The notes under the pieces are model-generated. The model was not told the origin of the DNA. It ran no database searches and saw nothing but the letters and a program-made list of their open reading frames with translations. A program made the translations under genes and the position numbers. This document shows positions 500 to 50,050 of a DNA stretch of 64,000 nt, piece after piece (within the stretch, counting starts at the first letter, position 1; each line of letters begins with the position of its first letter). The stretch is from positions 6,841 to 70,840 of the IMG/VR virus record IMGVR_UViG_3300030330_004628, one strand, 5' to 3'. Source of the stretch: a virus. Taxonomy: Duplodnaviria; Caudoviricetes.

Positions 500-975
500 T
501 TACCATTAGTTATATCTTTATACGTGATTGTCACGTCTTGCCCTATCTTTATAGCTTTAGCTATTTCTGGATATATTCTTTTGTAAGCCTGTGTAGACTT
601 ACCTATAAAACCGTCCTTCTTGATTTTGTTGTTTTCTTGAGAGTCCCCGACAAGGAGACAACCTGCAGTATGCTCATCGGTATTACCACAATGTATAAGT
701 ATATAATCAAAATTAGGCACATCAAGAACGTGAAGCATCCCAATATGAATGTCGCTAAAACGTTTTTTATATCTTTCATTATACCCACCAACAGTCCTAA
801 GACCAAGCTTATAAGTCCCTTCAGGGATTCTAGTTTCTCCATATTTTTTTTCTTTTCTATATTCATCTTCTAATGTATAACACAAAAACTCTTTATCAAA
901 GTCTCCGTTTGATTTGTATAATAAACCGCTTGTAGAGTCATCACTGTTTGACACCCTTATTACCTCTAGTTTCAT
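487..975 (-). CDS. Endolysin, DUF5675-type L,D-peptidase
   Basis: CYTLED...IPEGTY...ILIHCGNT..HTAGCLLVG, with the His and Cys typical of the L,D-transpeptidase-like DUF5675 family common in crAss-like phages. Confidence 0.8.
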   Translation of the reverse strand: MKLEVIRVSNSDDSTSGLLYKSNGDFDKEFLCYTLEDEYRKEKKYGETRIPEGTYKLGLRTVGGYNERYKKRFSDIHIGMLHVLDVPNFDYILIHCGNTDEHTAGCLLVGDSQENNKIKKDGFIGKSTQAYKRIYPEIAKAIKIGQDVTITYKDITNGNCVC

Positions 976-1262
976 AATTGTTTAAGTTTTGTTTTTAAAT
1001 TTAAAGTTAATTGATTTTTTGTGTCTGAAGAAATAGAAATCCAATCATCTGTTATAGTTGGTTTTTTTTCTTGTATTTCACAATAAGAAATGCCTGGATT
1101 TTTTTCACCTGTATTTAAGTCATAAACACCACCTATATATGTACTGTTTTTTAAAACTACATTTGCTTTTGTCAAACTCAAATTAATAGTTATTTCTGAC
1201 ACCCCACTGGGGTTGTTGTGAACAATATTAAAACCAGATGTTTTGTCAACTAAATACTTCAT
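972..1262 (-). CDS. Hypothetical protein
   Basis: 96-aa ORF translationally coupled to both neighbours. Confidence 0.6.
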   Translation of the reverse strand: MKYLVDKTSGFNIVHNNPSGVSEITINLSLTKANVVLKNSTYIGGVYDLNTGEKNPGISYCEIQEKKPTITDDWISISSDTKNQLTLNLKTKLKQL

Positions 1263-1263
1263 T

Positions 1264-4200
1264 TTATTCGTTTTCGTTATTTTTTTTCACTACAAAATCT
1301 CCATATAACCAATAGTTTGCTTTGACAGGAGTTAATACATCTTCACTAAGATACGAATTATTTCCCCAAGTGGTTGAAAAGTAAGTTCCAGCTAGCCTAA
1401 TATATGACTCTTGCATGGGGTCAAACTGACGATATCCTTCTTTTGGCTTAATGTGAAACTGCAACTCTTCGCCGTCAGGAATTCCCATTTCACCTAAAAA
1501 CACAGTTGTTTGATTTGTTACAGAAAACGGTTGTGTCCAATCATAATTTTCAAAATCCTCTGGAAAAGGAACAGACCCGTCTATTTCAAAAGTATCATAT
1601 ATAAATTCTGGGTCATCAGCTTTTGTTATTTTAACTATATATTCAAATATATTATATTCAGGAGGGTCGTTTAAAGTTAACCTCATTAAATCCATTGTCA
1701 TAGCAGTACCTGAAGCTCTTATTTCTGCCTTTTTTTCTACAATTCTAGTGGGGTCACCTTGAGCTGGAGTTCCTTCAAATCCTTGTCGATATACTCGTCG
1801 AATACTTTTAGCAAGAGCTCTAATTGAAAAAGGGCTTCTAGGGTTGCCTGGAGGAATCCAATACGCATAAACTTTTCCATATATTAATTGACCACTTCCA
1901 TTGGGGTGTTCTGCAGGAATAAAAGCTCCCGTCTCTGGGTCTGTTGGCCATTCAGCCATTATTTCTGGAGTCCAAAAAACTTCAGTATATAAACAATTTT
2001 GTGCATTTATTTCAATCTTTTGAGATAATCCAAACTGACTACCGAAACTAAAAACTCCAAATCTAAGACATATTTCCTCCATTTGCCACCATGGATTTGT
2101 ACCACCCAACTCTGGAGGTGGGCCCCCAATAACTCTAGGGGTATAATGTTCTTTACTTTCAAACCAAAATTTCATATCATGACCTTGCCACTCTGGTTTT
2201 TTGGGTAAAACAACAGTAAATTCCCAATGTCTATTAGCCATATTTCGACTTTCAGCCCTGTCTTCTAAAGGACTTAAGCTTAAAAATCCAGCATAACCTG
2301 GATTAAAAGAATTTATTTCGTCATACGTCATGCCATAATATGAAGTAATTATTTCATCTTCTTGCGTATTTGACGTGGCATAGCCATCCCAAAATATTCT
2401 ATTATAATTACTATTGACACCAACTCTCGCTATATAAATTGGACTATCAAGAGTATTTCTAGCTTCAAGCTGTTCATAGTGACTTGTATCATCAGTTGCA
2501 TCTTCAAAGTCCCAATTTTTTCTATAGTCTGGTGTGTTAATATTTAATTGACCAGTATTACCCGCGCCAGTTATAGAATTACCATTTTCTTCGTCATAAT
2601 GAGCATTTAAACCTTCATTTTCGGTTTGTGTATTGTAAAAGGTATTACCACTTTTACATTCTACAATTCCTGTTTCACCAGTTGTTTCGTTTAAATAATG
2701 CATATCAAACTCAATTCTAGGAAGGTCGCTATTACTCCAAGCACTTAAATTACCATAATGCTTAAAAAGAGATTCACCTGGAAAAGGTAAATGAGCTATG
2801 TGATAATAAGGATTATGTTCTGGATTTAATTCTACACCCCACATTGCAGCACTATAATTGCTTCCCTGGGGAGCGCCTAATTGTAAAAGAGCACCATCCC
2901 ACATTAAATCTGTAAAACGATTTAAATCAAAATGAAAATTTCCATGCACATGAGATATTCTTTGTATAATAGAAAGTTTAAAATAAGGATTAAAGTAATC
3001 ATATTTTTTATACACATTAGATGGCGCGGAAGTATCGCCTTCTGCAACATTCCAATATTCATTATTTTCAGACGTTTGAAAACCTGACCCCTCCCCGTGC
3101 CAATCCCAATATGTGTTTGTGTAATGGTCAGACCAGCTTGAATTAACTTGGGCGCCTACATCATTTAAATAAAATTTTATTATTTTTCCTTCCATAGGCA
3201 TTAAGTCTAATCGATACCTGTTTGGATTTTCTTCAAAAACTGGAGAGTTTTCAGGATTTGGAACTTCTGGGTAATTATCATTTTTAACAATAGTAGTTCC
3301 AAAACTCCATATACCCTTTTCATGACCATATGTACTATTATTTCTTCCTATAATCTGTTCATAGCCATCATATTCTAATAAACTTTTGCCAGGCGCGTCG
3401 AATACATCAACACTTTTAAAGTAGTTTTGATATGACCAATCCCCTATATTGGGAACAAAGGGTGGAGACATTGTTTTTAAATGTTTAAACCTGTATTCAA
3501 CTACAAACTTTCTATCTCCTGCATTATCCCAGTCTATAAAATCCCATCCTGTATCTGCTACGTTTTGAAGATTATTTTCAGGGTGTTCCATGAAGCCTCC
3601 AAAAGGAGTTACAAATCTAAAAAGAAATTCATATGCTCCAGGCTCACCAGCTGTAGGATTAGAGTTTGTTGATATAGAACCATCAAAAGTGGGTTTAAAA
3701 TTGGGCATAAATGCTTCTGCTATAGGTATTATTGTCGTTGGAGTATCTGGGTCATTTAAATTAAAAACTTGAGTATTTAAACCTAAACCATAGGGGTTAA
3801 CTTGTGATTCTCCAAGGACGCCAGGCACATTTGGATTAATTGTATTATCCTCGTTTGTTGTGTATAGACCATATATGTCATTAAACTCAGGTTTTACAGG
3901 GAATCCTGTTCCGTCAGGTCTTGTAATTCTGCACACAGCCCTTATCTCACCCACACCAATATTAGTGCCTTCTGTGTAAAACGCTTTATCAACAGACATT
4001 CCATTTAATATAAACCCCGATATATACACATCAAATTGTGGCGAATAACTTTGATTAAAATAACCCTCATCTTGTTGAGACCCATCATATTGAGAAGATA
4101 AAAAATCTATTCCATTATTTATACCAATATCAAAAGCTGTCACTGGAGATTGTTCACTATTATAAGTTTGGTTAGAAAAAATAGAATCAACTTCTGAAAT

Positions 4201-6663
4201 TAAATTTACATTAGAATTGCTCATTAACCACCACGGCTCATAAATTGTGCCATCTAATCCAGCTGTGTTGCTTATAAAATTGCTAATAGCTTGTGGTAAA
4301 GGAGGCATTCCTGCTAGTTGATAATTAGATTGGTTAAGACCATATGTTAAAGAAGAGCTACTCGCAAAGGGTGTCCAATACAGCAACCCGCCTTGATAAT
4401 TTCCAGAAGGCTCGCCTGTTTGCCAATCTATAAAATTATTTCCATACCAAGCTTGTTGCTCTTGTATTGTATTTATAATAGGCATGCCGTCATCATCATA
4501 CACCTGCTCTATGCCCCAAGACGATAAATCATACGTGATGCCATCAAATTCAATTATAAATTCATTATACACTGGCTCTTGCAAATAAGCATCTTCTGTA
4601 GGCACGCCCCAATACGTAACGTCACCACCGCCTGACAAAACAAATCCAGGCAGGTCAGCTTCATTGGTGTAATTTAAATAATTCCACATAGTGCTTTCAA
4701 TACCTAAATAAGGTATTAAATTCCATCCTGGTGTATTTGTTGATGCAGGAAAATTTGGATACGCAGAGCTATCTGGAAATGAACTTCCCAATTGTTCAAG
4801 CATAATGTTAGAGGGTTCTTCTATTCCAATAGCGTCTGTAGGAATATGCCCTAACTCAGGATATGCGGCAAACATATCTAAAAAATATGATGTTTTAGGA
4901 TAAATCAAATAATCTTCATCCCAATCAACTAAAGATTCAACATAATAAAAAGGAATCCATGCGTCTGTTGTTTCTTCACCCTCTGCAAAAATAGCGCTAT
5001 AATTAGTAAGATATGGAACATTATTATTACTAGTACTACCAGTTTGATAATATGACCACCAAGGAAAAGCATCAGGATATTCTAATGCTGCTCCTCCAAA
5101 CATTATATTAAAAAAATCTGATATACCCATTGGTGGAGGCGCCAACAGTTGGTTTAAATCTTCTAAAGATTCAACAGGAGCGTAAGGTAAACCCACTTTT
5201 ACAGGATTAATCCTTCTCCAATCATTTACTCCTTGACCCACATTTACGGGAATGTCTAGAGTATTGTATATATACCAAGATGTCTCATCAGACACGCTAG
5301 AACCATAGGGAGCAACCCCCCAACCTATAGGGTCAGATGGGCTCAATCCTGAAAAAAACATTTGAACAGAAAAGTATGGGTTATTACTAAGATTAGTTTC
5401 TGATGGATACCAAAGCAAATCTCCTGGAGTGTAATTAGCCGCCAACTCCAAAGAAGCTTCATAAAAATAGTTATGTATACCATAAATTATTGCTGAAGGT
5501 GAATAGTATTCTTCCATATTGAGTGATGTAGACGACCATATGTCTGTTTCTTCATCTTGATTTAACCAAAGGTCATACACACCTTCATAGGGCTCTAAAT
5601 AATTAAAAACATTATCTGTATAACTAGCGGATTGAAAATCAACACCAGAATAAGATTCTTGATTTTCAAACCAGTTGGACGCAACAACGTAATAATCAGT
5701 GTTACTCGCATATCCCCAGTTTATATTTTCTTCTTCTGTTGGGTTACTTATATAAGGACCAATATTCCAAGGGTAATTGCCCGTGTGAAAAGTAAAAGAA
5801 TCTCCATCGAGATTAGTCCACGAATTAATATTTGTAAAAGTTTCTGTTTGAGGCGCGTAATCAGGGGTTGCACATTGAGTGTTGTATCTAACAGGGATAG
5901 GGATTACGGACCATTTGTACATATATTCCCTTTCATCAAAAATACATCTAACTACATTTTTTCTATGTATAGTTGTTTTTAAAAGAAGCTCCTCCATACC
6001 ATCTTTATAGGTAAGCTTGTTATCGCTCCAAACTTCATTATTATCAATATAATCTTGATTAATATACGGAAAGTCTATTTGGGGGTCTTCATAGTATAGA
6101 TTAGTTCCGTTTTCTTGATTTGCTTGTAAAACTTTCCACTCTGGAAGGTAGCAGGGATAAAGACCTTCATCTCCAACAACATGAAACCACTCATCATAAT
6201 AGCCATTTTGCAGTATATTTGAATCTGATTCATATGGAGACGTCCATAACTCTGTCAACTCCTCGCTCATCCAACCAACTCTTAAATGCCAGTTGGGTAT
6301 TATATCCTCCATCAAATCCTCTAAATTTATTCCAATATCATCAGGATTATATGTAAATAAAATATAACTATATGTGCCAACTATAGGGTAAAACCCTTCT
6401 TCCCCACCAAGTGTATTTACTGTAATTTTACCATCCTCAACAAGAGTGTTAAATGGTATAGGCGCTCCAGTAGATGTGGGCATAATTGTACCCACTGGAT
6501 TAGACAGGTTTTTGAAAGCTGCAAAAAACGCTACATGACCCTCTGGGAAAACATAATCAGAACCGTCTTCATTTTTAACATTTAAAACAAATTCAAATTT
6601 ATTGCCCCTTAATGTATTTATTTTAACATTTTTTGCCCAATATGTAGATATATTTTCAGGCAT
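1264..6663 (-). CDS. 1799-aa acidic, aromatic-rich putative tail fibre/receptor-binding protein; termini form a BppU-like adaptor domain
   Basis: aa 1-104 and aa 1785-1794 align with the adjacent 161-aa ORF; the interior is rich in D/E/N/Y/W/P. Confidence 0.6.
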   Translation of the reverse strand: MPENISTYWAKNVKINTLRGNKFEFVLNVKNEDGSDYVFPEGHVAFFAAFKNLSNPVGTIMPTSTGAPIPFNTLVEDGKITVNTLGGEEGFYPIVGTYSYILFTYNPDDIGINLEDLMEDIIPNWHLRVGWMSEELTELWTSPYESDSNILQNGYYDEWFHVVGDEGLYPCYLPEWKVLQANQENGTNLYYEDPQIDFPYINQDYIDNNEVWSDNKLTYKDGMEELLLKTTIHRKNVVRCIFDEREYMYKWSVIPIPVRYNTQCATPDYAPQTETFTNINSWTNLDGDSFTFHTGNYPWNIGPYISNPTEEENINWGYASNTDYYVVASNWFENQESYSGVDFQSASYTDNVFNYLEPYEGVYDLWLNQDEETDIWSSTSLNMEEYYSPSAIIYGIHNYFYEASLELAANYTPGDLLWYPSETNLSNNPYFSVQMFFSGLSPSDPIGWGVAPYGSSVSDETSWYIYNTLDIPVNVGQGVNDWRRINPVKVGLPYAPVESLEDLNQLLAPPPMGISDFFNIMFGGAALEYPDAFPWWSYYQTGSTSNNNVPYLTNYSAIFAEGEETTDAWIPFYYVESLVDWDEDYLIYPKTSYFLDMFAAYPELGHIPTDAIGIEEPSNIMLEQLGSSFPDSSAYPNFPASTNTPGWNLIPYLGIESTMWNYLNYTNEADLPGFVLSGGGDVTYWGVPTEDAYLQEPVYNEFIIEFDGITYDLSSWGIEQVYDDDGMPIINTIQEQQAWYGNNFIDWQTGEPSGNYQGGLLYWTPFASSSSLTYGLNQSNYQLAGMPPLPQAISNFISNTAGLDGTIYEPWWLMSNSNVNLISEVDSIFSNQTYNSEQSPVTAFDIGINNGIDFLSSQYDGSQQDEGYFNQSYSPQFDVYISGFILNGMSVDKAFYTEGTNIGVGEIRAVCRITRPDGTGFPVKPEFNDIYGLYTTNEDNTINPNVPGVLGESQVNPYGLGLNTQVFNLNDPDTPTTIIPIAEAFMPNFKPTFDGSISTNSNPTAGEPGAYEFLFRFVTPFGGFMEHPENNLQNVADTGWDFIDWDNAGDRKFVVEYRFKHLKTMSPPFVPNIGDWSYQNYFKSVDVFDAPGKSLLEYDGYEQIIGRNNSTYGHEKGIWSFGTTIVKNDNYPEVPNPENSPVFEENPNRYRLDLMPMEGKIIKFYLNDVGAQVNSSWSDHYTNTYWDWHGEGSGFQTSENNEYWNVAEGDTSAPSNVYKKYDYFNPYFKLSIIQRISHVHGNFHFDLNRFTDLMWDGALLQLGAPQGSNYSAAMWGVELNPEHNPYYHIAHLPFPGESLFKHYGNLSAWSNSDLPRIEFDMHYLNETTGETGIVECKSGNTFYNTQTENEGLNAHYDEENGNSITGAGNTGQLNINTPDYRKNWDFEDATDDTSHYEQLEARNTLDSPIYIARVGVNSNYNRIFWDGYATSNTQEDEIITSYYGMTYDEINSFNPGYAGFLSLSPLEDRAESRNMANRHWEFTVVLPKKPEWQGHDMKFWFESKEHYTPRVIGGPPPELGGTNPWWQMEEICLRFGVFSFGSQFGLSQKIEINAQNCLYTEVFWTPEIMAEWPTDPETGAFIPAEHPNGSGQLIYGKVYAYWIPPGNPRSPFSIRALAKSIRRVYRQGFEGTPAQGDPTRIVEKKAEIRASGTAMTMDLMRLTLNDPPEYNIFEYIVKITKADDPEFIYDTFEIDGSVPFPEDFENYDWTQPFSVTNQTTVFLGEMGIPDGEELQFHIKPKEGYRQFDPMQESYIRLAGTYFSTTWGNNSYLSEDVLTPVKANYWLYGDFVVKKNNENE

Positions 6664-6678
6664 AATTCTATTTTATTT

Positions 6679-7164
6679 TTAACCTTCTTCAAAGAATCCT
6701 CCTTCACCAGCAGGAACACCTCCTAAGTTACTTGAAGGGTTGTCGTCAATAACAATAAAATCGCCAAACAGCCAGTGTGTTAATTGGTCTGTATTTTCTG
6801 TAGAGTCAACTTTTTGTGTAAATATATTATATTTATATACACCAGGGGCAGGCCAAAAGCCAACATCATTGGTTGATGTTATTGTTATTTTTCCGTCTTC
6901 AACAGTTGTGTTAAATGTAATTGGCGTGGGGGTGTTGTTTGATAAAACGCCGCCTTGATAAGCAGCATATATATTTTGCATTTGATTTCCCGATGGTGTT
7001 AATACCTGAAAGTAACCATTGTCTGTTTCTGTAGAAGAGTTTGTGAAATCATAGTTTTCTCCACTACTTGTTTTAACATTAATAACCAATTGAAAATGAT
7101 TACCTCTTAAAGCTTTTATGGTAACCTTTTGTGCTGAATATGCTAATAACTCTTGTAACGCCAT
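6679..7164 (-). CDS. BppU-N-like beta-sandwich adaptor protein
   Basis: LRGN-x-F...GVYKY...WLFGDF-x-V pattern typical of small phage baseplate/fibre adaptor domains. Confidence 0.55.
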   Translation of the reverse strand: MALQELLAYSAQKVTIKALRGNHFQLVINVKTSSGENYDFTNSSTETDNGYFQVLTPSGNQMQNIYAAYQGGVLSNNTPTPITFNTTVEDGKITITSTNDVGFWPAPGVYKYNIFTQKVDSTENTDQLTHWLFGDFIVIDDNPSSNLGGVPAGEGGFFEEG

Positions 7165-7553
7165 TATTGAAACTTATTTAATATTATTGTATCTACAGAG
7201 TATTGTATTGTTTTTTTGTCCACCTCTAATTGAAACATTATATTAGGACCAAACCTTTCTCTTTCTTCTCCATTTTCAAAAACTAAAACAGTTGGTATTG
7301 CAGACACATTATATTTGTTTTGTATTTTACTACACTTACCTATATCAACCCTATACTTCTCACACTCCTTGAGTTTATTTAGTTCTGCAAATTGGTTAGC
7401 AGAATTCCACTCAACCCAAAATTCTACTACAACAACATCTTTTGCTATTGTTTTATTAAAGTTGTCAGAACTTACAAATTCCTGTCCAAAAGCGCTACCT
7501 ACTAAAAAAAATAAAACACCTAATAAAATTAATATATGATTAGCTATATTCAT
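7164..7553 (-). CDS. Exported thioredoxin-fold protein lacking CxxC
   Basis: Signal peptide (..GSAFG/QE), then VVVEFWVEWN in place of V-x-F-W-A-x-W-C, then KYNVSAIPTVLVFENG (cis-Pro loop). Confidence 0.7.
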   Translation of the reverse strand: MNIANHILILLGVLFFLVGSAFGQEFVSSDNFNKTIAKDVVVVEFWVEWNSANQFAELNKLKECEKYRVDIGKCSKIQNKYNVSAIPTVLVFENGEERERFGPNIMFQLEVDKKTIQYSVDTIILNKFQ

Positions 7554-7831
7554 TGCATGTCGTCTATTTTGTCCCTAAGATATTTAATGTCTTCTTTAAT
7601 TTCTTTGACATCTTCTTGTGTTGTCATAATAGTGGCACGTATCATTTTGTCTTTCATGTCAAACTCCATTTTAGTAACTTCTGGTTTTGGTGGAATTGGA
7701 AGTTCTTTTGCTTCAGCTATATCGGCTTGTAGTGTAAACCACATACCCACAAAAGCAAAAATTAAAACGGCTAACCCGCCTAATGTTTTTAGACTTACTT
7801 CAAACTTGGATTCTTCTGATATTTCTTTCAT
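7550..7831 (-). CDS. Single-TM plus coiled-coil membrane protein (spanin/holin-accessory-like)
   Basis: Hydrophobic helix LGGLAVLIFAFVGMWFTL and C-terminal heptads (VKEIKEDIKYLRDKIDDMQ). Confidence 0.55.
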   Translation of the reverse strand: MKEISEESKFEVSLKTLGGLAVLIFAFVGMWFTLQADIAEAKELPIPPKPEVTKMEFDMKDKMIRATIMTTQEDVKEIKEDIKYLRDKIDDMQ

Positions 7832-8043
7832 TTTTTTGCGAATTTTTCAACTCCACTAATTCCAAAACATCCAAGAACTACCCACACAAAGGAGTCATAT
7901 ACAAACTTATTAATAACTAGGTCTTTGCCCACCCACCCTGTTACTAAGTCAGCTATCATAATTAAGACCATAATAGCAAAGGCAACAAATCCAATTATAG
8001 ATTTTTCGTTCCAATTATTATCGTCTTTAAATATGTTCATCAT
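7828..8043 (-). CDS. Small 2-TM membrane protein (holin-like)
   Basis: Two hydrophobic helices and a basic C-terminus in 71 aa. Confidence 0.55.
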   Translation of the reverse strand: MMNIFKDDNNWNEKSIIGFVAFAIMVLIMIADLVTGWVGKDLVINKFVYDSFVWVVLGCFGISGVEKFAKK

Positions 8044-8402
8044 TTCTTCTTTTTTCCACCCCAGTATTCAACGGCAAAACCCTCTTTTACTAAAGTGTTA
8101 TTTACGTTAATAGGCAAGCCTAAGTCGTCTGGGTATATATGTAACACGCCCAAAACTCTACCAAACTTACCAACGCTTTGACTCTCTACAACTAAATCAC
8201 CTTTATCTAAAAGCTCAACTAATCTATCTTTAGATGCTAGTCCACGCTTTTTTTCTTCCAAGTCTCTGGTTCTAGATTCTGGAGTATCAATGCCTGCTAG
8301 TCTAATTCTTTTTTTTATGGTTACATCAAACCCTAAATCTATATTAGCATCTATTGTGTCTCCGTCAATAACTCTTGCTACCTCTGCTTTGTAGGTGTAC
8401 AT
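8040..8402 (-). CDS. Thermonuclease (SNase-like) family nuclease
   Basis: RVIDGDT, RIRLAGIDTPE, GKFGRVL and LVKEGFA motifs; no signal peptide. Confidence 0.9.
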   Translation of the reverse strand: MYTYKAEVARVIDGDTIDANIDLGFDVTIKKRIRLAGIDTPESRTRDLEEKKRGLASKDRLVELLDKGDLVVESQSVGKFGRVLGVLHIYPDDLGLPINVNNTLVKEGFAVEYWGGKKKK

Positions 8403-8593
8403 TAATCGTATTGTTGAGTAAACATGTCTCTCCTGCCGCCTTTCTTTTTGCGTTTTTTAGAAGATGAATATTTAACTTTTCCACCCTCTTTAAACAGTTT
8501 ACCTGCTAGCATACCTACTGGTCCTAACATACCAGAACCCGCAGCTCCTTTAACAACGTTACCAACCTTGCTCATAATATCTTTAAAAGCCAT
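8402..8593 (-). CDS. Small Gly-rich/basic protein with FKEGG motif
   Basis: 63 aa, coupled to neighbours; amphipathic N-half and Lys-rich C-half. Confidence 0.55.
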   Translation of the reverse strand: MAFKDIMSKVGNVVKGAAGSGMLGPVGMLAGKLFKEGGKVKYSSSKKRKKKGGRRDMFTQQYD

Positions 8594-8595
8594 AA

Positions 8596-9231
8596 TTAAT
8601 TTATTTTATATTTAATACTACCTCCTTCGATGTAAACACCTTCTGGTCTTCTTATTACTTGTCCCTGTAAATTATATAGTAAATTATCAGATATTGATTT
8701 ATCTAATATTTCCCCAAGCGAACTGTTACAAGGCAAACCAGTGTCGCAATCTATATATTCTGTATTGATTTCCATTATTGTGTCAATAATAAATATCTCA
8801 ACATATTCTATAACATCTATAAACATTGTATCTAATACATCTGCATATACAGTGTCTGTGTTATATATATATTCTGTTTCTATAATTGTTTCGTACTCAA
8901 CTATTGTATCATACTCTGTTATATACTCATATTCTATTACTGGAATCTCCACATATACTGTGTCACATTCTTCTGCTGGTGGAGCGCATTCTTCAGCTTC
9001 TGTAGGAACAGCTCCATTCTCATCACCCGCATCAATACAATCTTCCCAACCATCATTAAGCCAAGAGTTTTGAACACATCCCATTGGAGCATATTGAGTC
9101 CAATTAGAAGGGTCATCACCACAATAAAATCCGTCCGCTTCTGCGCAGTCTAAACATAGTTGCTGAAAGTCATATCCTTGAGAAAAGGCAAAAGAAGATA
9201 TGATAAACAATATGGATAATAGTTTCTTCAT
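8596..9231 (-). CDS. Secreted protein: signal peptide, LDL-receptor class A-like module, D-T-x-rich stalk, T9SS-type C-terminal tail
   Basis: MKKLLSILFIISSFAFS/Q; FYC...CVQNSWLNDGWEDCIDAGDE; five D-T-[VIM] triplets; LLYNLQGQVIRRPEGVYIEGGSIKYKIN. Confidence 0.65.
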   Translation of the reverse strand: MKKLLSILFIISSFAFSQGYDFQQLCLDCAEADGFYCGDDPSNWTQYAPMGCVQNSWLNDGWEDCIDAGDENGAVPTEAEECAPPAEECDTVYVEIPVIEYEYITEYDTIVEYETIIETEYIYNTDTVYADVLDTMFIDVIEYVEIFIIDTIMEINTEYIDCDTGLPCNSSLGEILDKSISDNLLYNLQGQVIRRPEGVYIEGGSIKYKIN

Positions 9232-9232
9232 A

Positions 9233-10297
9233 TTACAAAAATAAATAATTTATACCAATCTTAAATTCATGTAGTGGCTTCATCCAATATCTCTGGTGAG
9301 TTCCCTCCATAAATAATCCCAAGCTTTTTGTTAACCTAACCCCCAATACAAGACCTGCGTCCCATTCTATTACGGCTGGTATAGGGTCTTCCTCCCACTG
9401 GGGTAGTGTGTAATCGAAGCTATAATCATCGAGTCCAACATGGTAAGGAAGAATATTCATCCAGCCGTGTAACCACCATTCAGGAGTCCATTTGTAATAA
9501 GCAACTCCCAGTGTAACGGATAATTCTTTTTGTAGTCCTAGTTTTTCTAATTCACTATCATTAAAATCATCAATAGCATTACCAAAATGGTACTCCATAA
9601 ACTCTCCTGTTGTGTGAGCCACTTGTACTGAATCTCCACTAGATATATCAAACCAATCATAGTTAACGTAGTTTCCCTGCATCCATTGTTCACTTACATA
9701 ACCAAAGTCTTCTGCTATAGCGTTAAATGGTGTTACTGCGGGGTCCCAAAACTCATATATTGGTAAAAAGCCATATGCTGGGTGCACTCTAAATGCTCCG
9801 CCTATTGTAAAATCCCAATTACCAACGTTTTTACGCCATTTAAGCTCAGATAATATATATTTAAGGTCTACCCTTTGATTGTCCACAAACTGTGCTTTAA
9901 AAACATACGAATCACTCAAATAACGTAAGAAGAAATCCTGATTTATGTACTCTTCTCCCCTATCTCGTATAAATGAAATATTTGCAAGGTACTCAAAACC
10001 CTTTGCATTACCTATGGGGGCTTTATTAGACATTGTAGACTCTGTTCCATCATAAAAAGACTTAATCTTTCCCTCATAATCAAAACGAGCCACTTTGCGC
10101 CATCCTAATGTAAAATTATAATCATATGGATTAATTTCTGTTATATCTATAAGTTGTTTGTCTTCTATCTTAAACATGCCGTCTTCTAGGGTAGAAGAAC
10201 CCATTGTAGAAGACGCGTAAAAAGTAGAATACTTAAAGAAGTTTTGTGAGCTACATAATGTAGTTAACAATATAAAAAATAATAATATCTTTTTCAT
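9233..10297 (-). CDS. Putative outer-membrane beta-barrel protein (start corrected to MKKILLF at 10297)
   Basis: Signal peptide ending ..LCSS/Q, many alternating amphipathic beta-strands, C-terminal beta-signal-like FKIGINYLFL. Confidence 0.65.
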   Translation of the reverse strand: MKKILLFFILLTTLCSSQNFFKYSTFYASSTMGSSTLEDGMFKIEDKQLIDITEINPYDYNFTLGWRKVARFDYEGKIKSFYDGTESTMSNKAPIGNAKGFEYLANISFIRDRGEEYINQDFFLRYLSDSYVFKAQFVDNQRVDLKYILSELKWRKNVGNWDFTIGGAFRVHPAYGFLPIYEFWDPAVTPFNAIAEDFGYVSEQWMQGNYVNYDWFDISSGDSVQVAHTTGEFMEYHFGNAIDDFNDSELEKLGLQKELSVTLGVAYYKWTPEWWLHGWMNILPYHVGLDDYSFDYTLPQWEEDPIPAVIEWDAGLVLGVRLTKSLGLFMEGTHQRYWMKPLHEFKIGINYLFL

Positions 10298-10301
10298 TAC
10301 A

Positions 10302-10309
10302 CAAATATA
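10302..10309 (-). promoter_or_regulatory. Bacteroidota sigma70-type -7 element TATATTTG, 4 nt before the beta-barrel ATG
   Basis: Exact TAnnTTTG match; lies in a 16-mer identical to the one at 14021-14036. Confidence 0.7.
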
Positions 10310-10313
10310 CAAA

Positions 10314-11456
10314 TTAAAATTTATTAGCTATATACTGATACTTTCTTTGAAAATAATATAACATATTAGACCATCTTCTTTTAAAATTACGATTAAAAAA
10401 AATAACATCACTTGCTCTTGGACCAGAATGCTCGTTCTTAAAAATAAGAACTTCATATATAAAACCCTTAAAAGTGCCAGTTGCGCCCTCAGAACTACTC
10501 ATTCTAGGCTGTCCCCCTATAGTTATACTAGGATGATGTAAACTAGCTCCAGTAAATTCAAAAGTTTCATTTAAGCCTCCTGACCAACCAGTGCCTGACA
10601 TACCACTCATAGTAAAGCCAGGATTCCACAATCTCATATATGTTGGAGAAGGATAATCTCCTGGACTTGAACTAAATTCAGAAAATTGATGATGAAAACC
10701 ATCAGCCTGCAAACTAGTATAACCACTAGTGGGTTGATTATTATTATACATTTCATAAGAATTCCACATATGGTAATGAAACTTCCTGTCATCTGTAGTA
10801 TCATACTCAGTATATCTTAATTGCCTTCCTGATATTTGATTTGCATCATATATTTCTAATGTCCCTTTGTAAGAAGTGGTATCTGCAAAAGAAAAACTTA
10901 ACCATTGATTTGGTGTAGGGTTTGCTGCACCATAATCATTTGTTGTCATAAAAAACACATCTTGCCTTTGGTCTACATCTGGGGTTAATCTTTTGCACAC
11001 AAAATACATAGTGCAAGTGTTTAAATCTATATCCGATGTAGAAAAATCTGTATTATTTACACTGCCACTATTTTGTTTAGTTGCCTCTAAAAACTGTGAG
11101 CCATTAAAAACGGCAAATGATGGATTTCCCGAATTACCACCTAAAAATGTAGGACATAATGAAGATGCTCCAGTTTGAGCAACGTATTGACCAAGAGCTT
11201 TATTTCCAGCAGTAGTCATGTTTTCATTAAGGTCACCCTGAAGATAAGCTTTATTGTAAGCTAACAATATACTTTCACCAGCAGTAGGGGGAGCAGAACC
11301 ACCGCTACTTACGCTTCTTAAAGAAGATACATCTGTAAAATCTACCCAGAATATTAAATCGGGGTCATTAGCCCTATCTTCTGTTACATATTGAGCCTCT
11401 ACTTCTAAAGGATTTAAAAACCTTCTTCCTCGATTATTATTAATACGAGTAATCAT
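10314..11456 (-). CDS. LamG/concanavalin-A-like jelly-roll virion protein (fibre tip/lectin)
   Basis: LIFWVDFTD...Q...PTF...FAVFNGSQFL...FKGFIYEVLIF...YFQRKY pattern. Confidence 0.6.
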   Translation of the reverse strand: MITRINNNRGRRFLNPLEVEAQYVTEDRANDPDLIFWVDFTDVSSLRSVSSGGSAPPTAGESILLAYNKAYLQGDLNENMTTAGNKALGQYVAQTGASSLCPTFLGGNSGNPSFAVFNGSQFLEATKQNSGSVNNTDFSTSDIDLNTCTMYFVCKRLTPDVDQRQDVFFMTTNDYGAANPTPNQWLSFSFADTTSYKGTLEIYDANQISGRQLRYTEYDTTDDRKFHYHMWNSYEMYNNNQPTSGYTSLQADGFHHQFSEFSSSPGDYPSPTYMRLWNPGFTMSGMSGTGWSGGLNETFEFTGASLHHPSITIGGQPRMSSSEGATGTFKGFIYEVLIFKNEHSGPRASDVIFFNRNFKRRWSNMLYYFQRKYQYIANKF

Positions 11457-12178
11457 ATCATTTTAGGAATTAAATAAGCCACAGCCCTTACAAACTGTCC
11501 AAGCCTCACAAAATTCCATCTGCCGTATAATATAACGCCTTCTACTATATTATCTCCAGCTACAAAGGGTCCAGCAGTATGATTTACATCATCAGCATCT
11601 AAACAATCTTCTATTAAAGCTGTTGATTGTTCTACTATTGCTGGAAAAGTTAAACACCTTTTACTTCCCGCCACATCTAATTGAGACGTTAAGTTTGAAG
11701 GAGAGCCACCTAAAGATGTAGATAATTGTATTGTTTTATCATTTTCATTTTTGCTTACAACATAATATGTGGTTGCAGAATGTGGAGCAGTAGAAGTTCC
11801 TATAGTATAACTTGACAAGCCTAAAGAAGAATCTGTTTGCCCCCTCTTCCAATAATTACAAGTATGGCCAACTCTTATATACTTCCAGTCTAAACTATTT
11901 GTAATTTTTATAGTATCATTAGCAGAGCTAACATTATTACCGTTAAATTGAAGAACCATAGAGCCGCCAAAATGTGTACCCCAATACAAAGGGTGCATAT
12001 CATCTGCAACTAAATATTGAAATGAATTATCTATAGCAGAAGACTCCCTATTACTTAATATATGAATAGCTCCTATAAGATATTTACTAGAGCCTAATAA
12101 AGATAATTGTTCCCCAGAATCTAACGTCACCGACCCATATTGACCCAGTGAAAACTTGGATAGGTCGTTAACATTCAT
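11453..12178 (-). CDS. Putative fibre/virion protein (paralog of 12182..12802) with internal insert
   Basis: Shared pattern YWGT/YFGT and G-x-x-x-x-GRW-x-x-[IV]-x-L...A[VI][AV]YL. Confidence 0.5.
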   Translation of the reverse strand: MNVNDLSKFSLGQYGSVTLDSGEQLSLLGSSKYLIGAIHILSNRESSAIDNSFQYLVADDMHPLYWGTHFGGSMVLQFNGNNVSSANDTIKITNSLDWKYIRVGHTCNYWKRGQTDSSLGLSSYTIGTSTAPHSATTYYVVSKNENDKTIQLSTSLGGSPSNLTSQLDVAGSKRCLTFPAIVEQSTALIEDCLDADDVNHTAGPFVAGDNIVEGVILYGRWNFVRLGQFVRAVAYLIPKMI

Positions 12179-13067: not shown

Positions 13068-13493
13068 TTAATGTGTTGTATCTTCAAATATGTGAAGAAA
13101 TTCATATTCTTGTGTTGCGTTACTTGCGTGTGTTACTTTAAAATCATTATCTGCTTGATAAGGAATTAAAGCGGCTCCTCCTGGAGGAATGTTTCCAACT
13201 ACTGTAGAGCCTAGCGTAACTAAAAGCTCTTCTCCTGATGTTGAAGATAAATTTTTTAAAAAAACATATCCATTTTTTGTGCTAGTAACAAGACTCGCTG
13301 TTATAATAGTTGTAATAGCTGTTTGTCCATTTGAAATTCTTTGAATACCACTTGATACATCTAAATTATCTGTTAAAGAGCCTCTTTTTCTCATTGTAAA
13401 ATTGCAGTATACACTTATAGGAGAGCTAGATATAGTAGAGCTCTTTACTGATACACTTGCTGTTACTACTGGTGTTGTTGGATTAAAAGCCAT
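13068..13493 (-). CDS. Small virion beta-protein (paralog of 13512..13997)
   Basis: Shared MA[FY]..T.P...AS...., GY[VL][FY][LI].N and final EY/EF-hydrophobic strand. Confidence 0.55.
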   Translation of the reverse strand: MAFNPTTPVVTASVSVKSSTISSSPISVYCNFTMRKRGSLTDNLDVSSGIQRISNGQTAITTIITASLVTSTKNGYVFLKNLSSTSGEELLVTLGSTVVGNIPPGGAALIPYQADNDFKVTHASNATQEYEFLHIFEDTTH

Positions 13494-13511: not shown

Positions 13512-13997
13512 TTATAATTCTTGTCCTGGTATATATCCTGCATCCGCACCCTCATATATTACCATATACTCTAGTGGCCATGTATCGTCTGTTGATAAAA
13601 CAGTAATATCCGCTCCATCATGAAGTGTTACAGGCATATATATAAAATCTCCCTCAAACAACTCACAAAGCAAAGCTCCAGACACATCTGTTTCATATAT
13701 AGAAAACTTTCTAGTTCCTTTAGTAGTTGTATTTGGGTTGGCTATATACAAATAACCTCTACCTCTAGTAGCAGATGCGCTTGCAGCAGTATAAGACGAT
13801 GTGTCAAATACTAAAATTCCCGCATTACTATTATTAGTTCCTAAAACTCTTTTTAATCCCGTGCTTCTTTTACATCCAGCTCCGTGAGTAATATCATGAA
13901 GTTGCATTCTATTAGACACAGACACATCGGAAGATGTATACCCAGATGTACTTATGGTTAATGAAGCTGTTGCCGTGGGTGTAGTTGAATATGCCAT
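13512..13997 (-). CDS. Small virion beta-protein (paralog of 13068..13493)
   Basis: See the paralog; has its own upstream TAnnTTTG promoter. Confidence 0.55.
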   Translation of the reverse strand: MAYSTTPTATASLTISTSGYTSSDVSVSNRMQLHDITHGAGCKRSTGLKRVLGTNNSNAGILVFDTSSYTAASASATRGRGYLYIANPNTTTKGTRKFSIYETDVSGALLCELFEGDFIYMPVTLHDGADITVLSTDDTWPLEYMVIYEGADAGYIPGQEL

Positions 13998-43184: not shown

Positions 43185-44600
43185 TTACGCATTTGAAAGA
43201 ATACCACAAGATAATGGATTTCTAAGAATAATACCAGATTCAGAAAGAATTTGACATTCAAAGAAATCATCACCATTAGCAGCCATCATCGAGTTATAGT
43301 CATAAGGGTTAACCATACCAGGTACATATTTCTTAACAAAACTTCTGTTAAAACCTTCAGCACCTTTAGCAATTAACTCTACATTACTAACACCATTTTG
43401 CATTCCCATATCTACAAATACCATTTTACCTGATTCATTTGAAGAATCAAATGTAGATGAAATAGAATTGTGTAGATTGCTGTCATCAAATACTGGGCAG
43501 TAAGATAGAATCATTTTATTACCAAGAACATTGTACTCGCTAAAGTTAGCTCCTAATGATACATCAGCACCACCTTTACCAGCAAATACAGAAGCAGCAC
43601 CAGCGCCTTGAGAAACTAATAAGTCTTTCATTGCTCTGTGGAAGTCAATTCTTCCTTGTGTTCCTGTAAATACTGTAAATACGTTACCTTCTGCATTTAA
43701 AGCATTTTTAGAAAGTGTTCCTATAAAGTTAACTATATCTTCTTCAGTTAACGCACCAGCTGTATATGTAGCTTGATTAGAACCATCGATTTGTGCTAGT
43801 AAGCCGTCTCCCATAATTGGAACACCTGAAACAAACTCTCCTGTGTCTAATCCTGTATCTCCAGGGTAACTAGCAGAGGTCATAGTGCTTGACTTTTTAC
43901 CATACCATCTTTGTAATTCTAACTCATACATAAACTGGTCAGTCATTTGTTGTTCTTTTGTGAAATACCATAATCGGTGTCCATTAGATTCAATCCAAGT
44001 AACATCAGTTAAATCAGTTCCCATAATTTTAGTTTTTTTACGAGATAGAGTTAACCAGTTCTTGTAAGTATCTGGATAAGAATAGTTTTGTCCTACCTCA
44101 GACGCTAACGAACCTTGGTTAAACGCATTACCAATACATCCAATGATATCACCTACAGCAGCAGTTTCATTAATTGCATCAATAGCTCTAAACGTAACAA
44201 CATTAGATGTTCCAGAAGCTGTAGGAACATCAGTTACTATAGCAGTGTTACCAGAAGGCATTCTTACTACATCATTTACATTTAAGTTATCACCATGGTC
44301 ACCAGAACCGTGCTTAAGAGTTACTGTAAAAGTTGCACCTGCAGCAACGTTTGGAGTTGCTTCTGTGTGAACTACAGCTGGTTTTCTGTAACGACCTTGC
44401 ATTTTCCATTCAAATGCATAATCACCGATTACTTTTTCTGCAGCATTTCTACCTGCAGCTTCTAACAAATATGTTAGAGAGAAACGTGGATATTGAGAGA
44501 TAATTTTCTTACCTATCTCTGGGTATTTTAGTAAGTTGGTTACCAACGCCGTTTCATCCGTTGTGTCCTTTCCATACGTACCCGTATAAACTTTTGCCAT
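43185..44600 (-). CDS. Major capsid protein (crAss-like HK97 fold)
   Basis: 471 aa; follows portal and scaffold; KNWLTLSRKK...ELELQRWYGK...GDGLLAQI...SESGIILRNP. Confidence 0.85.
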   Translation of the reverse strand: MAKVYTGTYGKDTTDETALVTNLLKYPEIGKKIISQYPRFSLTYLLEAAGRNAAEKVIGDYAFEWKMQGRYRKPAVVHTEATPNVAAGATFTVTLKHGSGDHGDNLNVNDVVRMPSGNTAIVTDVPTASGTSNVVTFRAIDAINETAAVGDIIGCIGNAFNQGSLASEVGQNYSYPDTYKNWLTLSRKKTKIMGTDLTDVTWIESNGHRLWYFTKEQQMTDQFMYELELQRWYGKKSSTMTSASYPGDTGLDTGEFVSGVPIMGDGLLAQIDGSNQATYTAGALTEEDIVNFIGTLSKNALNAEGNVFTVFTGTQGRIDFHRAMKDLLVSQGAGAASVFAGKGGADVSLGANFSEYNVLGNKMILSYCPVFDDSNLHNSISSTFDSSNESGKMVFVDMGMQNGVSNVELIAKGAEGFNRSFVKKYVPGMVNPYDYNSMMAANGDDFFECQILSESGIILRNPLSCGILSNA

Positions 44601-44674: not shown

Positions 44675-45703
44675 TTACTTCATAAACTCAACAGGGTCAA
44701 AACCACTTTTTTGTTTGGTTTCAACATGCTGAGACTTTCGTCCTAGGTTTGGATTAGTAATCTTATTGATTACAGCGGCTTTACCCTTCTCCATTCCTTG
44801 GCCACGTAACATCTTGAAGATTTTATCTTTATATTTCCATAGGAACGCAGCATCCGCAACATTGGCATGATTACTATACAGTTCTTCAGAAAATTCTCCT
44901 GATGTTATATAATTATATAATTCCTTTTTTTCAGCCTTTTTAATTTTACCTCCAAAGAAATCATTTTTTTCTTTAATATATGTTTGTAAAGCTTTTCTAT
45001 TTTCTAGATTAGCTTTTTCTTTTTGAGCTACACGTTCTTTTTCAATCTTTCTCAATCTGTCTCTTTCATTTGCAATATAGTTTTGCAAATTCTTTCTAAG
45101 AACTAATGCTTCTCTTTTTAAAAGTCCAGAATCCTGCATTCTATCTACAGTATCCTTAATCTCTTCTTTTTCCAAGCCAGAAGCCTCCAAATCTGCCTCC
45201 ACTAATCCTCTATCTCCTAGTTTAAGAAAATCCTGCAGTTGTGTTATAGTGTCATTTGCAGGAACAGGATTGTCAAGCATTTTTTTAATTTCTGCCTTAA
45301 AGCTTTTTTCATCAGTTGCTTTTACACCCATTTCGCTAGCTAAAGTTTCCCAATCATATGGGGCCTCCTTAACCTCTTCTTCTTTTTTATCTTCCGCTTC
45401 TTCTTTTTTAGCTTCAGGTTCAGCGTCCCAATCTTCTTCTTCCTCTTGCTGTTCTTCTTCCTTTGACTCAGTTTCTACCGAATCCCAAGTGAAGTCATCA
45501 TCATTAGTTTCTTCTGATTCTTCAGCGCTTTCCGCCTCAACTGTTTCTTCTTGCTTTTCTTCTGTTTTAGTTTCAGAAACTTCTTCTAGTGAAGCAAATG
45601 CTTTAGGGTCAAACCCTGGTTCTTTTGTTTCTTCAGTTGTTTCTGCCACCCCTTGCTCAACCTTTTCTATAAGGTCTTCGCCTGTTTTGTTATTTTCTGC
45701 CAT
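44675..45703 (-). CDS. Scaffolding-like protein
   Basis: Very acidic disordered N-half and helical C-half; lies between portal and MCP genes. Confidence 0.65.
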   Translation of the reverse strand: MAENNKTGEDLIEKVEQGVAETTEETKEPGFDPKAFASLEEVSETKTEEKQEETVEAESAEESEETNDDDFTWDSVETESKEEEQQEEEEDWDAEPEAKKEEAEDKKEEEVKEAPYDWETLASEMGVKATDEKSFKAEIKKMLDNPVPANDTITQLQDFLKLGDRGLVEADLEASGLEKEEIKDTVDRMQDSGLLKREALVLRKNLQNYIANERDRLRKIEKERVAQKEKANLENRKALQTYIKEKNDFFGGKIKKAEKKELYNYITSGEFSEELYSNHANVADAAFLWKYKDKIFKMLRGQGMEKGKAAVINKITNPNLGRKSQHVETKQKSGFDPVEFMK

Positions 45704-49881: not shown

Positions 49882-50050
49882 GCTTTTTAATTGGGTCATC
49901 TGGACGCCTTGCGTCTTGTAATACACCTCCCAACTTAAAAGCTGTTTTTAATTTCTTTTGATACTTTTCATAAGCGCCTTGCTCCATATAAGTATCACCG
50001 TCCATCACGTATTTTTTGTCCCCTATTTTTATTTTTTTTTGCTTTGTCAT
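49865..50050 (-). CDS. Small hypothetical protein
   Basis: 61 aa, overlap-coupled to neighbours. Confidence 0.55.
   Translation of the reverse strand: MTKQKKIKIGDKKYVMDGDTYMEQGAYEKYQKKLKTAFKLGGVLQDARRPDDPIKKHEQRD

What the first reader, a model, noticed from the sequence alone, without database searches (positions are those of the whole stretch)
1264..7164. A 1680-aa insertion inside a small adaptor domain whose intact paralog is the next gene upstream
Seen: the 161-aa protein reads KVTIKALRGNHFQLVINVK...FNTTVEDGKITI...GFWP..GVYKYNIFT-[14 aa]-WLFGDFIV. The 1799-aa protein reads NVKINTLRGNKFEFVLNVK...FNTLVEDGKITV...GFYP..GTYSYILFT-[aa 105-1784]-WLYGDFVV. The last beta-strand of the domain therefore lies ~1680 residues downstream, so the huge acidic region is a loop-out with both ends anchored in one beta-sandwich. 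No intein termini are present. Inference: a duplicated attachment socket carrying a swappable receptor-binding payload.
Basis: seen in the sequence. Interest (0 to 1): 0.75.

Follow-up and report, generated by a model that had tools for sequence, protein, structure and literature searches.

The report
Split anchor domain carrying giant payload
In a marine crAss-like phage, a small immunoglobulin-like "ring/anchor" protein has a neighbouring copy whose last beta-strand lies about 1,680 residues downstream, so a huge, fast-evolving and exchangeable payload is looped out of one small domain, probably as an optional host-binding appendage of the virion.

Summary
The 161-aa protein (6679-7164, minus strand) and the 1799-aa protein (1264-6663, minus strand) share residues 3-108 (BLASTP E 1e-16). 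They also share the final strand, WLFGDFIV against WLYGDFVV. A profile of the small family's last strand scores 21.4 bits at residues 1784-1796, against 6.8 for the best of 2000 shuffles.

The small protein models as an Ig-like sandwich. Its best structural matches are the N-terminal ring domain of mycobacteriophage Douge BppU (Z 9.2) and the T5 collar protein p132 (Z 8.6).

A two-chain co-fold of residues 1-250 with 1722-1799 puts the C-terminal strand between strands F (97-104) and A (14-15). The ipSAE score is 0.68, against 0.00 for the best control.

Six or more payload types, 852-1690 residues long, sit between the same conserved arms in related marine phages. The arms are an N arm of about 245 aa and a C arm of about 70 aa. 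Profile comparison finds no homology between the payloads.

Two syntenic relatives have only the small gene, so the giant gene is accessory. A tree shows a single origin of the split form.

The payload's function and its place on the virion are inferred, not shown. The payload could not be modelled (pLDDT 27). I rate this a new variant of a known kind, of moderate interest.

The parts
6679..7164 (-). Small intact paralog (161 aa, P0002): a complete Ig-like sandwich with an F-G hairpin (strands 108-117 and 128-139), then a 23-aa Gly/Glu-rich tail.
   Evidence: AF2 pLDDT 80.5, pTM 0.73; Douge BppU ring domain Z 9.2, T5 p132 Z 8.6.
6349..6663 (-). P0001 residues 1-105: a conserved N-terminal peptide (10 of the first 14 residues invariant among long forms) plus strands A-F of the Ig-like domain.
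   Evidence: E 1e-16 to P0002; invariant columns; HMM 59 bits.
5929..6348 (-). P0001 residues 106-245: the conserved N arm, present in all long forms and absent from the small family.
   Evidence: hhalign 1-243 against the other payload types, probability 99.5-100; 82% identity against 58% for the payload.
1477..5928 (-). P0001 residues 246-1729: the variable acidic payload. It has no known family, no internal repeats, and is exchanged or hyper-diverged between relatives.
   Evidence: AF2 failed.
1324..1476 (-). P0001 residues 1730-1780: the conserved C arm. In the co-fold model it touches N-arm residues 227-232.
1288..1323 (-). P0001 residues 1781-1792: the closing G strand (NYWLYGDFVV core), homologous to residues 127-139 of the small paralog.
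   Evidence: 21.4 bits against 6.8 in shuffles; pairs antiparallel with 97-104 and lies next to 14-15.
1264..1287 (-). P0001 residues 1793-1799 (a short polar tail) and the stop codon.
   Evidence: the tail is 2-13 residues in all closed long forms.

Best explanation
The phage is a complete 70.8-kb marine crAss-like virus. Its 161-aa protein is an Ig-like 'ring/anchor' domain of the structural class used by the BppU N-terminal ring domain and by the T5 collar protein p132. Both of those form 12-subunit rings on phage tails and hold side appendages.

The next gene is a duplicate of it. In that copy, the loop between the last two strands (F and G) has been expanded from about 14 to about 1,680 residues. 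The chain leaves the domain after strand F and runs out along a conserved N arm (106-245). It then builds a large acidic payload (246-1729), returns along a conserved C arm (1730-1780), and inserts its last strand (1781-1792) between strands A and F. This closes the sandwich within the same polypeptide.

The closed domain, together with the very conserved N-terminal peptide that both paralogs share, docks the protein on the virion at the kind of site the small paralog occupies. The payload points outward and contacts the host surface as an optional adhesin or fibre.

Because homologous arms flank the payload on both sides, whole payloads can be exchanged by double recombination. Because the closing strand is the last thing translated, only full-length chains can complete the anchor.

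What is shown: the paralogy, the split position, conservation of the arms against turnover of the payload, the accessory status, and the single origin.

What is model-supported only: intramolecular closure.

What is inferred: virion location, ring formation, the adhesion function, and the full-length checkpoint.
For: 1. Homology of both pieces to the small paralog: BLASTP E 1e-16 and 0.024. The HMM of the last strand scores 21.4 bits against 6.8 for the best of 2000 shuffles. Three hits in the whole 70.8-kb genome, and only in these two genes.

2. The small protein models confidently (pLDDT 80.5) as an all-beta domain whose last two strands form a hairpin. The best structural matches are 8zdo_a, Z 9.2, rmsd 2.6, 106 residues on chain residues 1-107, and 7qg9_R, Z 8.6, rmsd 3.0, 111 residues. 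The next row is Z 6.8. 8zdo_a is the Douge BppU N-terminal ring domain, which forms a dodecameric ring and carries a CBM (PMC13033339). 7qg9_R is T5 p132, a dodecameric collar that anchors the pb1 fibres (PMC10038345).

3. Co-fold of residues 1-250 with 1722-1799: score 0.68, best of 3 controls 0.00. That mark was reached by 58 of 80 solved complexes and 2 of 110 mismatched pairs; the counts hold only roughly because my own alignment was used. The runs agree in at least 48% of contacts, and the partner's pLDDT is at least 36. The lowest-error contacts are 98-104 with 1784-1791 in antiparallel register and 14-15 with 1788-1790. This is the homologous place of the G strand.

4. Closed long forms of 971, 1263, 1353, 1417, 1699 and 1799-1813 aa all end in W[LM][YF]GDF[VI][VI] plus 2-13 residues. 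Profile-profile comparison finds only the N (about 1-245/300) and C (about 65-155 aa) parts homologous.

5. Against the closest relative, flanking genes are 89-98% identical and the arms about 90%. The payload is 58%, with troughs of 23-40%.

6. Syntenic relatives L005 and L014 carry the small gene only. Small-plus-long gene pairs are adjacent in four other lineages.

7. The domains of long forms make one split (100/100), sister to the small paralogs that sit beside them.

8. Neither protein has a signal peptide, and they lie at the end of the virion block just before DUF5675 and the holin.
Against: - No direct evidence places either protein in the virion. No PHROG, Pfam or NCBIfam family matches P0001 or P0002. 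No cultured phage in INPHARED has a relative.
- The genes just upstream look like exported cell-envelope proteins rather than virion parts: a thioredoxin fold and earlier notes.
- The co-fold cannot tell closure within one chain from strand donation between chains. Its chains had low pLDDT (36-49), and completing an Ig fold could be recalled from solved structures.
- One relative, P0028 (1317 aa, a singleton on a 4.1-kb contig), keeps the N arm but ends in a dockerin with no closing strand. If it is real, closure is not obligatory.
- The payload could not be modelled (pLDDT 27.2), so nothing shows that it binds anything.
- Relatives manage without the large gene, so it cannot be the essential receptor-binding protein.
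Confidence: 0.6

Rival explanations
1. Donor-strand exchange. The C-terminal strand does not return to its own N-terminal domain. It completes the incomplete Ig domain of a neighbouring subunit, linking copies head-to-tail into a ring, a trimer or a chain, as pilins do in chaperone-usher pili.
For: The co-fold used two separate chains, so it is equally compatible with pairing between chains. The fold search listed pilus subunits and chaperones at Z 5.3-6.3 and self-complemented FimA. The closest structural relatives form 12-subunit rings, where swapping strands between neighbours is geometrically easy.
Against: In the small paralogs the F-G loop is only 9-20 residues and models as a plain hairpin, so the ancestral state is closure within the chain. 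The N and C arms beyond the Ig domain also contact each other in the model (227-232 with 1734-1738), as expected if the chain goes out and comes back. The pilin matches are no better than the generic Ig background.
Confidence: 0.15
2. The two proteins are not virion parts. They are proteins of the infected cell, for example released at lysis or acting on the envelope alongside the exported proteins encoded just upstream. The split Ig domain serves some other binding role.
For: The upstream genes (7164-10316) include a thioredoxin-fold protein. Earlier notes read them as an exported cell-envelope module. The genes lie next to the lysis genes. No virion-protein family matches.
Against: Neither protein has a signal peptide or a T9SS sorting domain. 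The top two fold matches stand above the background and are both ring domains of phage tails. A 1799-aa, fast-evolving, cassette-swapping protein at the end of a structural block is typical of phage appendages. This 70.8-kb genome has no other candidate fibre gene of known type.
Confidence: 0.12
3. The C-terminal WLYGDF motif is an independent signal, such as a docking, chaperone-recognition or assembly tag that both paralogs need. It is not a strand of the N-terminal domain. [quoted passage not shown]
For: P0028 keeps the N arm but has no such motif. The co-fold had low per-chain confidence.
Against: In the small protein the motif is a confidently modelled strand (block pLDDT 94) that is hairpinned to strand F. 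In the co-fold it takes the homologous register between F and A with expected errors of 0.5-0.8 A, while the controls score 0.00. The apparent second open form, P0027, proved to be a truncated copy of the closed 971-aa P0030.
Confidence: 0.07

Closest known systems
BppU (baseplate upper protein) N-terminal ring domain: mycobacteriophage Douge gp23 (PDB 8ZDO) and lactococcal phage TP901-1 ORF48 (PDB 3UH8, 4V96)
   Same: It is an Ig-like sandwich of about 100 residues at the N-terminus of an appendage protein. The fold match to Douge is Z 9.2 over 106 residues, and to TP901-1 Z 5.7-6.5. In Douge the domain forms a dodecameric ring on the tail and carries a carbohydrate-binding payload (PMC13033339).
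   Different: There is no sequence-family membership: no Pfam hit at E up to 1. In BppU the payload follows the complete domain through a linker. Here the payload is nested inside the last hairpin and the chain returns to close the domain. The host phage is a crAss-like podovirus-type virus, not a siphovirus.
Phage T5 collar protein p132 (PDB 7QG9)
   Same: It is a free-standing Ig-like protein of about 140 aa with no payload, like the 161-aa paralog. The match is Z 8.6, rmsd 3.0, 111 residues. It forms a dodecameric collar onto which fibres are grafted (PMC10038345). The protein atlas listed one neighbouring cluster with Pfam LtfC on 31% of its members, which is a lead only.
   Different: In T5 the fibre (pb1) is a separate protein that intertwines with the collar. 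Here the 'fibre' is a paralog of the collar-like protein itself. No sequence similarity is detectable.
crAss001 tail and head fibres (gp22, gp21, gp29)
   Same: They belong to the same virus order. The fibres dock through short N-terminal segments (residues 1-26, 1-38 and 1-58), and gp29 carries an Ig-like sandwich (PMC10172136). Here the first 14 residues are the most conserved part of the long forms, and they are disordered in the monomer model.
   Different: No sequence similarity was found. The crAss001 fibre genes lie between the portal and capsid genes, whereas here that interval holds one 342-aa gene and the giant gene lies near the lysis genes. No split domain is described in crAss001.
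Nested (discontinuous) domain insertions in general, and engineered loop display on phage coat proteins
   Same: One domain is interrupted by a foreign, independently folding segment whose two ends lie close together in space.
   Different: The scale is unusual: a payload of 852-1690 residues sits in a domain of about 120 residues. It occurs as a natural, recurrent cassette system, with an intact paralog next door.

Membership tests
Small Ig-like family of marine crAss-like phages (unnamed; alignment A1) | N-terminal part, strands A-F, including the GxYxY F strand | tested here: met
   P0001 residues 1-109 score 59 bits against the family HMM. BLASTP E 1e-16.
Small Ig-like family of marine crAss-like phages (unnamed; alignment A1) | Final strand W-L-[YF]-G-D-F-[IV]-[IV] | tested here: met
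   21.4 bits at 1784-1796 against 6.8 for the best of 2000 shuffles. The strand is displaced by 1679 residues.
BppU_N (Pfam PF10651) | Match to the family HMM | tested here: not met
   No Pfam family at E up to 1 for P0001 or P0002. None of the 17 small-family members hit it.
BppU_N (Pfam PF10651) | Fold of the N-terminal ring domain | tested here: met
   8zdo_a Z 9.2, rmsd 2.6, 106 aligned residues on chain residues 1-107. 4v96_AA Z 6.5 and 3uh8_A Z 5.7.
BppU_N (Pfam PF10651) | Forms a ring on the distal tail and anchors an appendage | not testable with these tools
   Needs a virion structure or proteomics.
T5 p132 / LtfC (Pfam PF23926) | Match to the family HMM | tested here: not met
   No hit. 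The only link is an atlas neighbour cluster with LtfC on 31% of its members.
T5 p132 / LtfC (Pfam PF23926) | Fold | tested here: met
   7qg9_R Z 8.6, rmsd 3.0, 111 aligned residues. Foldseek 7qg9_L E 8e-4.
Invasin_D4 Ig-like domain (Pfam PF21764) | Match to the family HMM | tested here: inconclusive
   8 of the 17 small-family members match, best E 1.2e-5. P0002 itself does not.
Intein | Hint domain and Cys/Ser/Thr ... His-Asn-Cys/Ser/Thr junctions | tested here: not met
   No Pfam hit. The junctions read ...FTYNPDD... and ...KANYWLYG....
T9SS cargo (C-terminal sorting domain) | Sec signal peptide plus a type A or B sorting domain | tested here: not met
   No NCBIfam or Pfam hit. The N-termini are polar, with no hydrophobic signal.
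Crassvirales (genomic context) | crAss-type portal, large terminase and major capsid protein | tested here: met
   PHROG portal 3.4e-115, terminase 4.9e-89, capsid 1e-29. The portal is 28-29% identical to crAss-like phages over more than 90% of its length.
Dockerin-bearing payload | Dockerin_1 (PF00404) or dockerin_GC match | tested here: not met
   None in P0001. Present only in relatives: P0028 at 2e-7, and P0030 below the cut-off at 3.4e-4.

The most novel reading that the evidence does not exclude
The closing strand may be donated to a neighbouring subunit rather than to its own chain. A phage would then build a strand-exchanged ring or chain of giant appendages by the same principle as chaperone-usher pili. 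The intact small paralog would act as the cap or spacer that sets how many armed subunits are incorporated.
Probability: 0.12. Interest if true: 0.85.

Novelty: new variant of a known kind. Interest (0 to 1): 0.55.

Why it matters
Appendage proteins of crAss-like phages are almost wholly unannotated, and their fibres were not resolved even in the crAss001 atlas. This locus offers a simple sequence rule for finding one class of them in marine metagenomes: a conserved N-terminal peptide plus the A-F strands at the start, and W-L-Y-G-D-F at the very end.

It also shows a design not described for phage appendages. The payload is nested in a ring or anchor domain and flanked by two homologous arms. 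That explains how whole payloads of 850-1700 residues can be swapped without touching the attachment site. It also suggests a built-in check that only full-length chains are mounted.

If the design is confirmed, the F-G loop of the small paralog would be a natural display site tolerant of very large inserts. The pairing of a blank and an armed subunit would be a testable model for how phages tune the number of accessory adhesins.

Tried and rejected
- AF2 of the payload (residues 111-1310, a 9-row alignment) gave mean pLDDT 27.2. Only a beta-rich patch at about residues 905-1065 reached 65-73. I did not use the model for a fold search.
- The protein atlas search on the payload gave no usable hit.
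- Profile search of the PDB sequences with the long-form alignment gave nothing. With the small family it gave only chance-level hits.
- Pfam, PHROGs and NCBIfam on P0001 and P0002 gave nothing.
- tblastn of both proteins against 50,697 phage records gave no match.
- Viral-contig scans for P0027 and P0028 found nothing.
- A search for shorter relatives with intermediate inserts found only fragments on short contigs.
- Diversity-generating retroelement: the gene shares no repeat with the rest of the window. The only similarity is 72 nt at 76% between the 5' ends of the two paralogs.
- Internal repeats in the payload: none.
- Intein and T9SS cargo readings were rejected (see the membership test).
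- I first took P0027 as a second 'open' form. I rejected that when its cluster mate P0030 showed the closed C-terminus.
- The promoter and terminator scan was uninformative.
Full report
**Setting.** The window is most of a complete 70,840-bp virus record with direct terminal repeats. Its minus strand carries a large terminase (48061-49926), a portal (45746-48058) and a major capsid protein (43185-44600). It also carries giant proteins of 2304 and 3917 aa, then a run of small genes, the two genes of the finding, a 96-aa gene, a DUF5675 gene and a holin (107-499). The portal is 28-29% identical over more than 90% of its length to crAss-like phages of Bacteroides, Flavobacterium and Cellulophaga. 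All relatives of the two genes come from marine metagenomes (Tara, ENA, IMG/VR). This is a marine crAss-like phage.

**The observation.** P0002 (161 aa, 6679-7164) and P0001 (1799 aa, 1264-6663) are adjacent, 15 nt apart, on the minus strand.
- BLASTP aligns P0001 3-108 with P0002 4-120 (36% identity, E 1e-16), and P0001 1781-1796 with P0002 127-142 (E 0.024).
- I collected 16 further small-family members of 134-197 aa from 1.84 billion representatives. In their alignment the final strand WLYGDFIV is among the best-conserved blocks.
- An HMM of that strand region scores 21.4 bits at P0001 1784-1796. The best of 2000 shuffles of residues 111-1799 scores 6.8.
- In the whole genome, the family profile hits only P0002, the N-terminus of P0001 and the C-terminus of P0001.
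- The distance from the end of strand F to W of strand G is 9-20 residues in the small family and 1679 in P0001.

**Fold of the intact paralog.** AF2 with the family alignment gives pLDDT 80.5 and pTM 0.73. The model is an all-beta domain whose last two strands (108-117 and 128-139) are consecutive, and whose first eight and last eight residues are disordered.
- An exhaustive structural search puts two rows above the rest: 8zdo_a (Z 9.2, rmsd 2.6, 106 residues on chain residues 1-107) and 7qg9_R (Z 8.6, rmsd 3.0, 111 residues). The next row is Z 6.8.
- Below these come TP901-1 BppU, the 80alpha and NF5 baseplates and a fibre-tail adaptor at Z about 6, mixed with generic Ig domains.
- 8zdo_a is Douge BppU. 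Its N-terminal ring domain (1-100) forms a dodecameric ring around the distal tail protein and carries a carbohydrate-binding module on a linker (PMC13033339).
- 7qg9_R is T5 p132, an Ig-fold protein that forms the dodecameric collar onto which the L-shaped fibres are grafted. Its authors link it to the BppU N-terminal domain (PMC10038345).
- Foldseek against predicted viral structures returns N-terminal parts of minor tail and tail fibre proteins, and a BppU_N protein.

At the sequence level there is no membership. No Pfam, PHROG or NCBIfam family matches P0002. Eight of the 17 relatives weakly match the Ig-like Invasin_D4.

**Does the distal strand close the domain?** An insert-deleted construct cannot be submitted, so I co-folded two natural pieces of P0001 as separate chains, each with its alignment: residues 1-250 and 1722-1799.
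- The score is 0.68, against 0.00 for the best of 3 controls. That mark was reached by 58 of 80 solved complexes and 2 of 110 mismatched pairs. The counts hold only roughly, because my own alignment was used.
- The runs agree in at least 48% of contacts. The partner's pLDDT is at least 36, so its own fold is uncertain.
- The lowest-error contacts (0.5-0.8 A) are 102 with 1785/1786, 100 with 1788 and 98 with 1790. This is an antiparallel register with strand F. Residues 14-15 also touch 1788-1790, on strand A.
- Strand G is thus placed in the middle of an A-G-F sheet, exactly where homology with P0002 predicts.
- N-arm residues 227, 228, 230 and 232 also touch 1734, 1736 and 1738. This suggests that the outgoing and returning arms pair beyond the Ig domain.

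Two caveats apply. Completing an Ig fold may be recalled from solved structures. A two-chain model cannot separate closure within a chain from strand exchange between chains.

**The same junction in relatives.**
- Closed long forms exist with total lengths of 971 (P0030), 1263 (P0005), 1353 (P0029), 1417 (L009), 1699 (P0004/L008) and 1799-1813 aa (P0001, P0003, L001, L006, L007), plus a 5'-truncated one (L013).
- All of them start with the conserved peptide and the A-F strands, and end in W[LM][YF]GDF[VI][VI] plus 2-13 residues.
- BLAST and profile-profile comparison find homology only in the first 245-300 or so residues and the last 65-155 or so residues. The middles are unrelated, with probability at most 35% for a 17-residue motif.
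- Payloads of relatives contain a dockerin (P0028, PF00404, E 2e-7) or a dockerin-like repeat (P0030, below the cut-off).
- P0027, which looked like an open form, is a truncated copy of P0030.
- P0028 alone lacks the C arm.
- No forms with intermediate inserts were found.

**Evolutionary pattern.**
- Against the closest phage (L004), flanking genes are 89-98% identical. The small paralog is 89%, residues 1-110 are 89%, 111-245 are 82% and 1730-1799 are 91%. The payload is 58%, with 100-residue windows as low as 23-40%.
- Two syntenic relatives, L005 and L014, have the small gene followed directly by the 92-97-aa gene, the DUF5675-like gene and the holin. They have no large gene.
- Small-plus-long pairs are adjacent in L006, L007, L008 and L009.
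- In a maximum-likelihood tree of the Ig domains, all long forms fall on one side of a 100/100 branch. They are sister (94/84) to the small paralogs that sit beside long genes, and the L005 small protein lies outside. The root is a midpoint root only.
- The simplest history is one duplication of the small gene, then one insertion into the F-G loop, then repeated replacement or runaway divergence of the payload between fixed arms.
- No diversity-generating retroelement repeat is present.

**Mechanism I commit to.** The small protein is a ring or collar-type Ig anchor of the virion. The large paralog is an optional, armed version of it, whose payload is looped out of the F-G hairpin and presented to the host surface.
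- The N-terminal peptide is shared by both paralogs. Ten of the first 14 residues are invariant in long forms, and it is disordered in the monomer model. It probably docks into a virion partner, as the N-terminal 26-58 residues of crAss001 fibres do (PMC10172136).
- The two arms provide homology for double-crossover exchange of payloads.
- A strand that is central to the sheet and translated last would make anchor folding depend on a complete chain.

These functional steps are inference. The payload resisted modelling and every family search.

**Rivals.** The three rivals are strand exchange between subunits, a non-virion role, and an independent C-terminal tag. They are set out above with the results that would refute each.

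**Verdict.** The functional words 'attachment' and 'receptor-binding' remain plausible but untested. The thing works like a BppU or p132-type anchor with an appendage. It is not a sequence member of those families, and its nested, self-closing topology is a new variant.

Noticed in passing
window 8040-8402 (-): A 120-aa endonuclease (phrog_452, E 1e-37) sits inside the module. It has no counterpart in the syntenic relative L005 but is 97% conserved in L004. It is probably a free-standing homing endonuclease.
   Followed up: partly
window 8596-9231 (-) and 10314-11456 (-): These two genes are only 58-59% identical to the closest phage (L004), while their neighbours are 93-98% identical. The 380-aa and 241-aa genes (10314-12178) have no match at all in L005. 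This is a second fast-evolving, variable patch besides the payload.
   Followed up: partly
window 13068-13493 (-) and 13512-13997 (-): These two adjacent small genes (141 and 161 aa), just after the 3917-aa giant, each match both members of the corresponding pair in L005 at 25-37% identity. They look like another tandem paralog pair, with no known family.
   Followed up: no
window 972-1262 (-): The 96-aa gene directly downstream of the giant gene is only 32% identical in L005, while the flanking DUF5675 gene and holin are 76-91%. It is present whether or not the large gene is. Its function is unknown.
   Followed up: no
window about 3469-3951 (-) (P0001 residues about 905-1065): This is the only part of the failed payload model with moderate confidence (pLDDT 65-73). 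It is beta-rich and ends in an R-F-x-x-L-K-T-M motif, which recurs in the otherwise unrelated payloads of P0029, P0005, P0028 and P0030 (hhalign probability 35% only).
   Followed up: partly
relatives P0028 (residues 1203-1256) and P0030 (residues 681-732): Dockerin-type calcium-binding repeats sit inside or at the end of the payloads of related phages. In P0030 the repeat lies in the middle of the loop-out, not at a terminus.
   Followed up: partly
window 6573-6644 and 7071-7142: The 5' ends of the two paralogs still share 76% nucleotide identity over 72 nt. This is the only DNA-level repeat that involves the gene.
   Followed up: yes
window 44675-45703 (-): Only one 342-aa gene lies between the portal and capsid genes, where crAss001 keeps its fibre genes. 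The fibre module of this phage is therefore placed differently or is much reduced.
   Followed up: no
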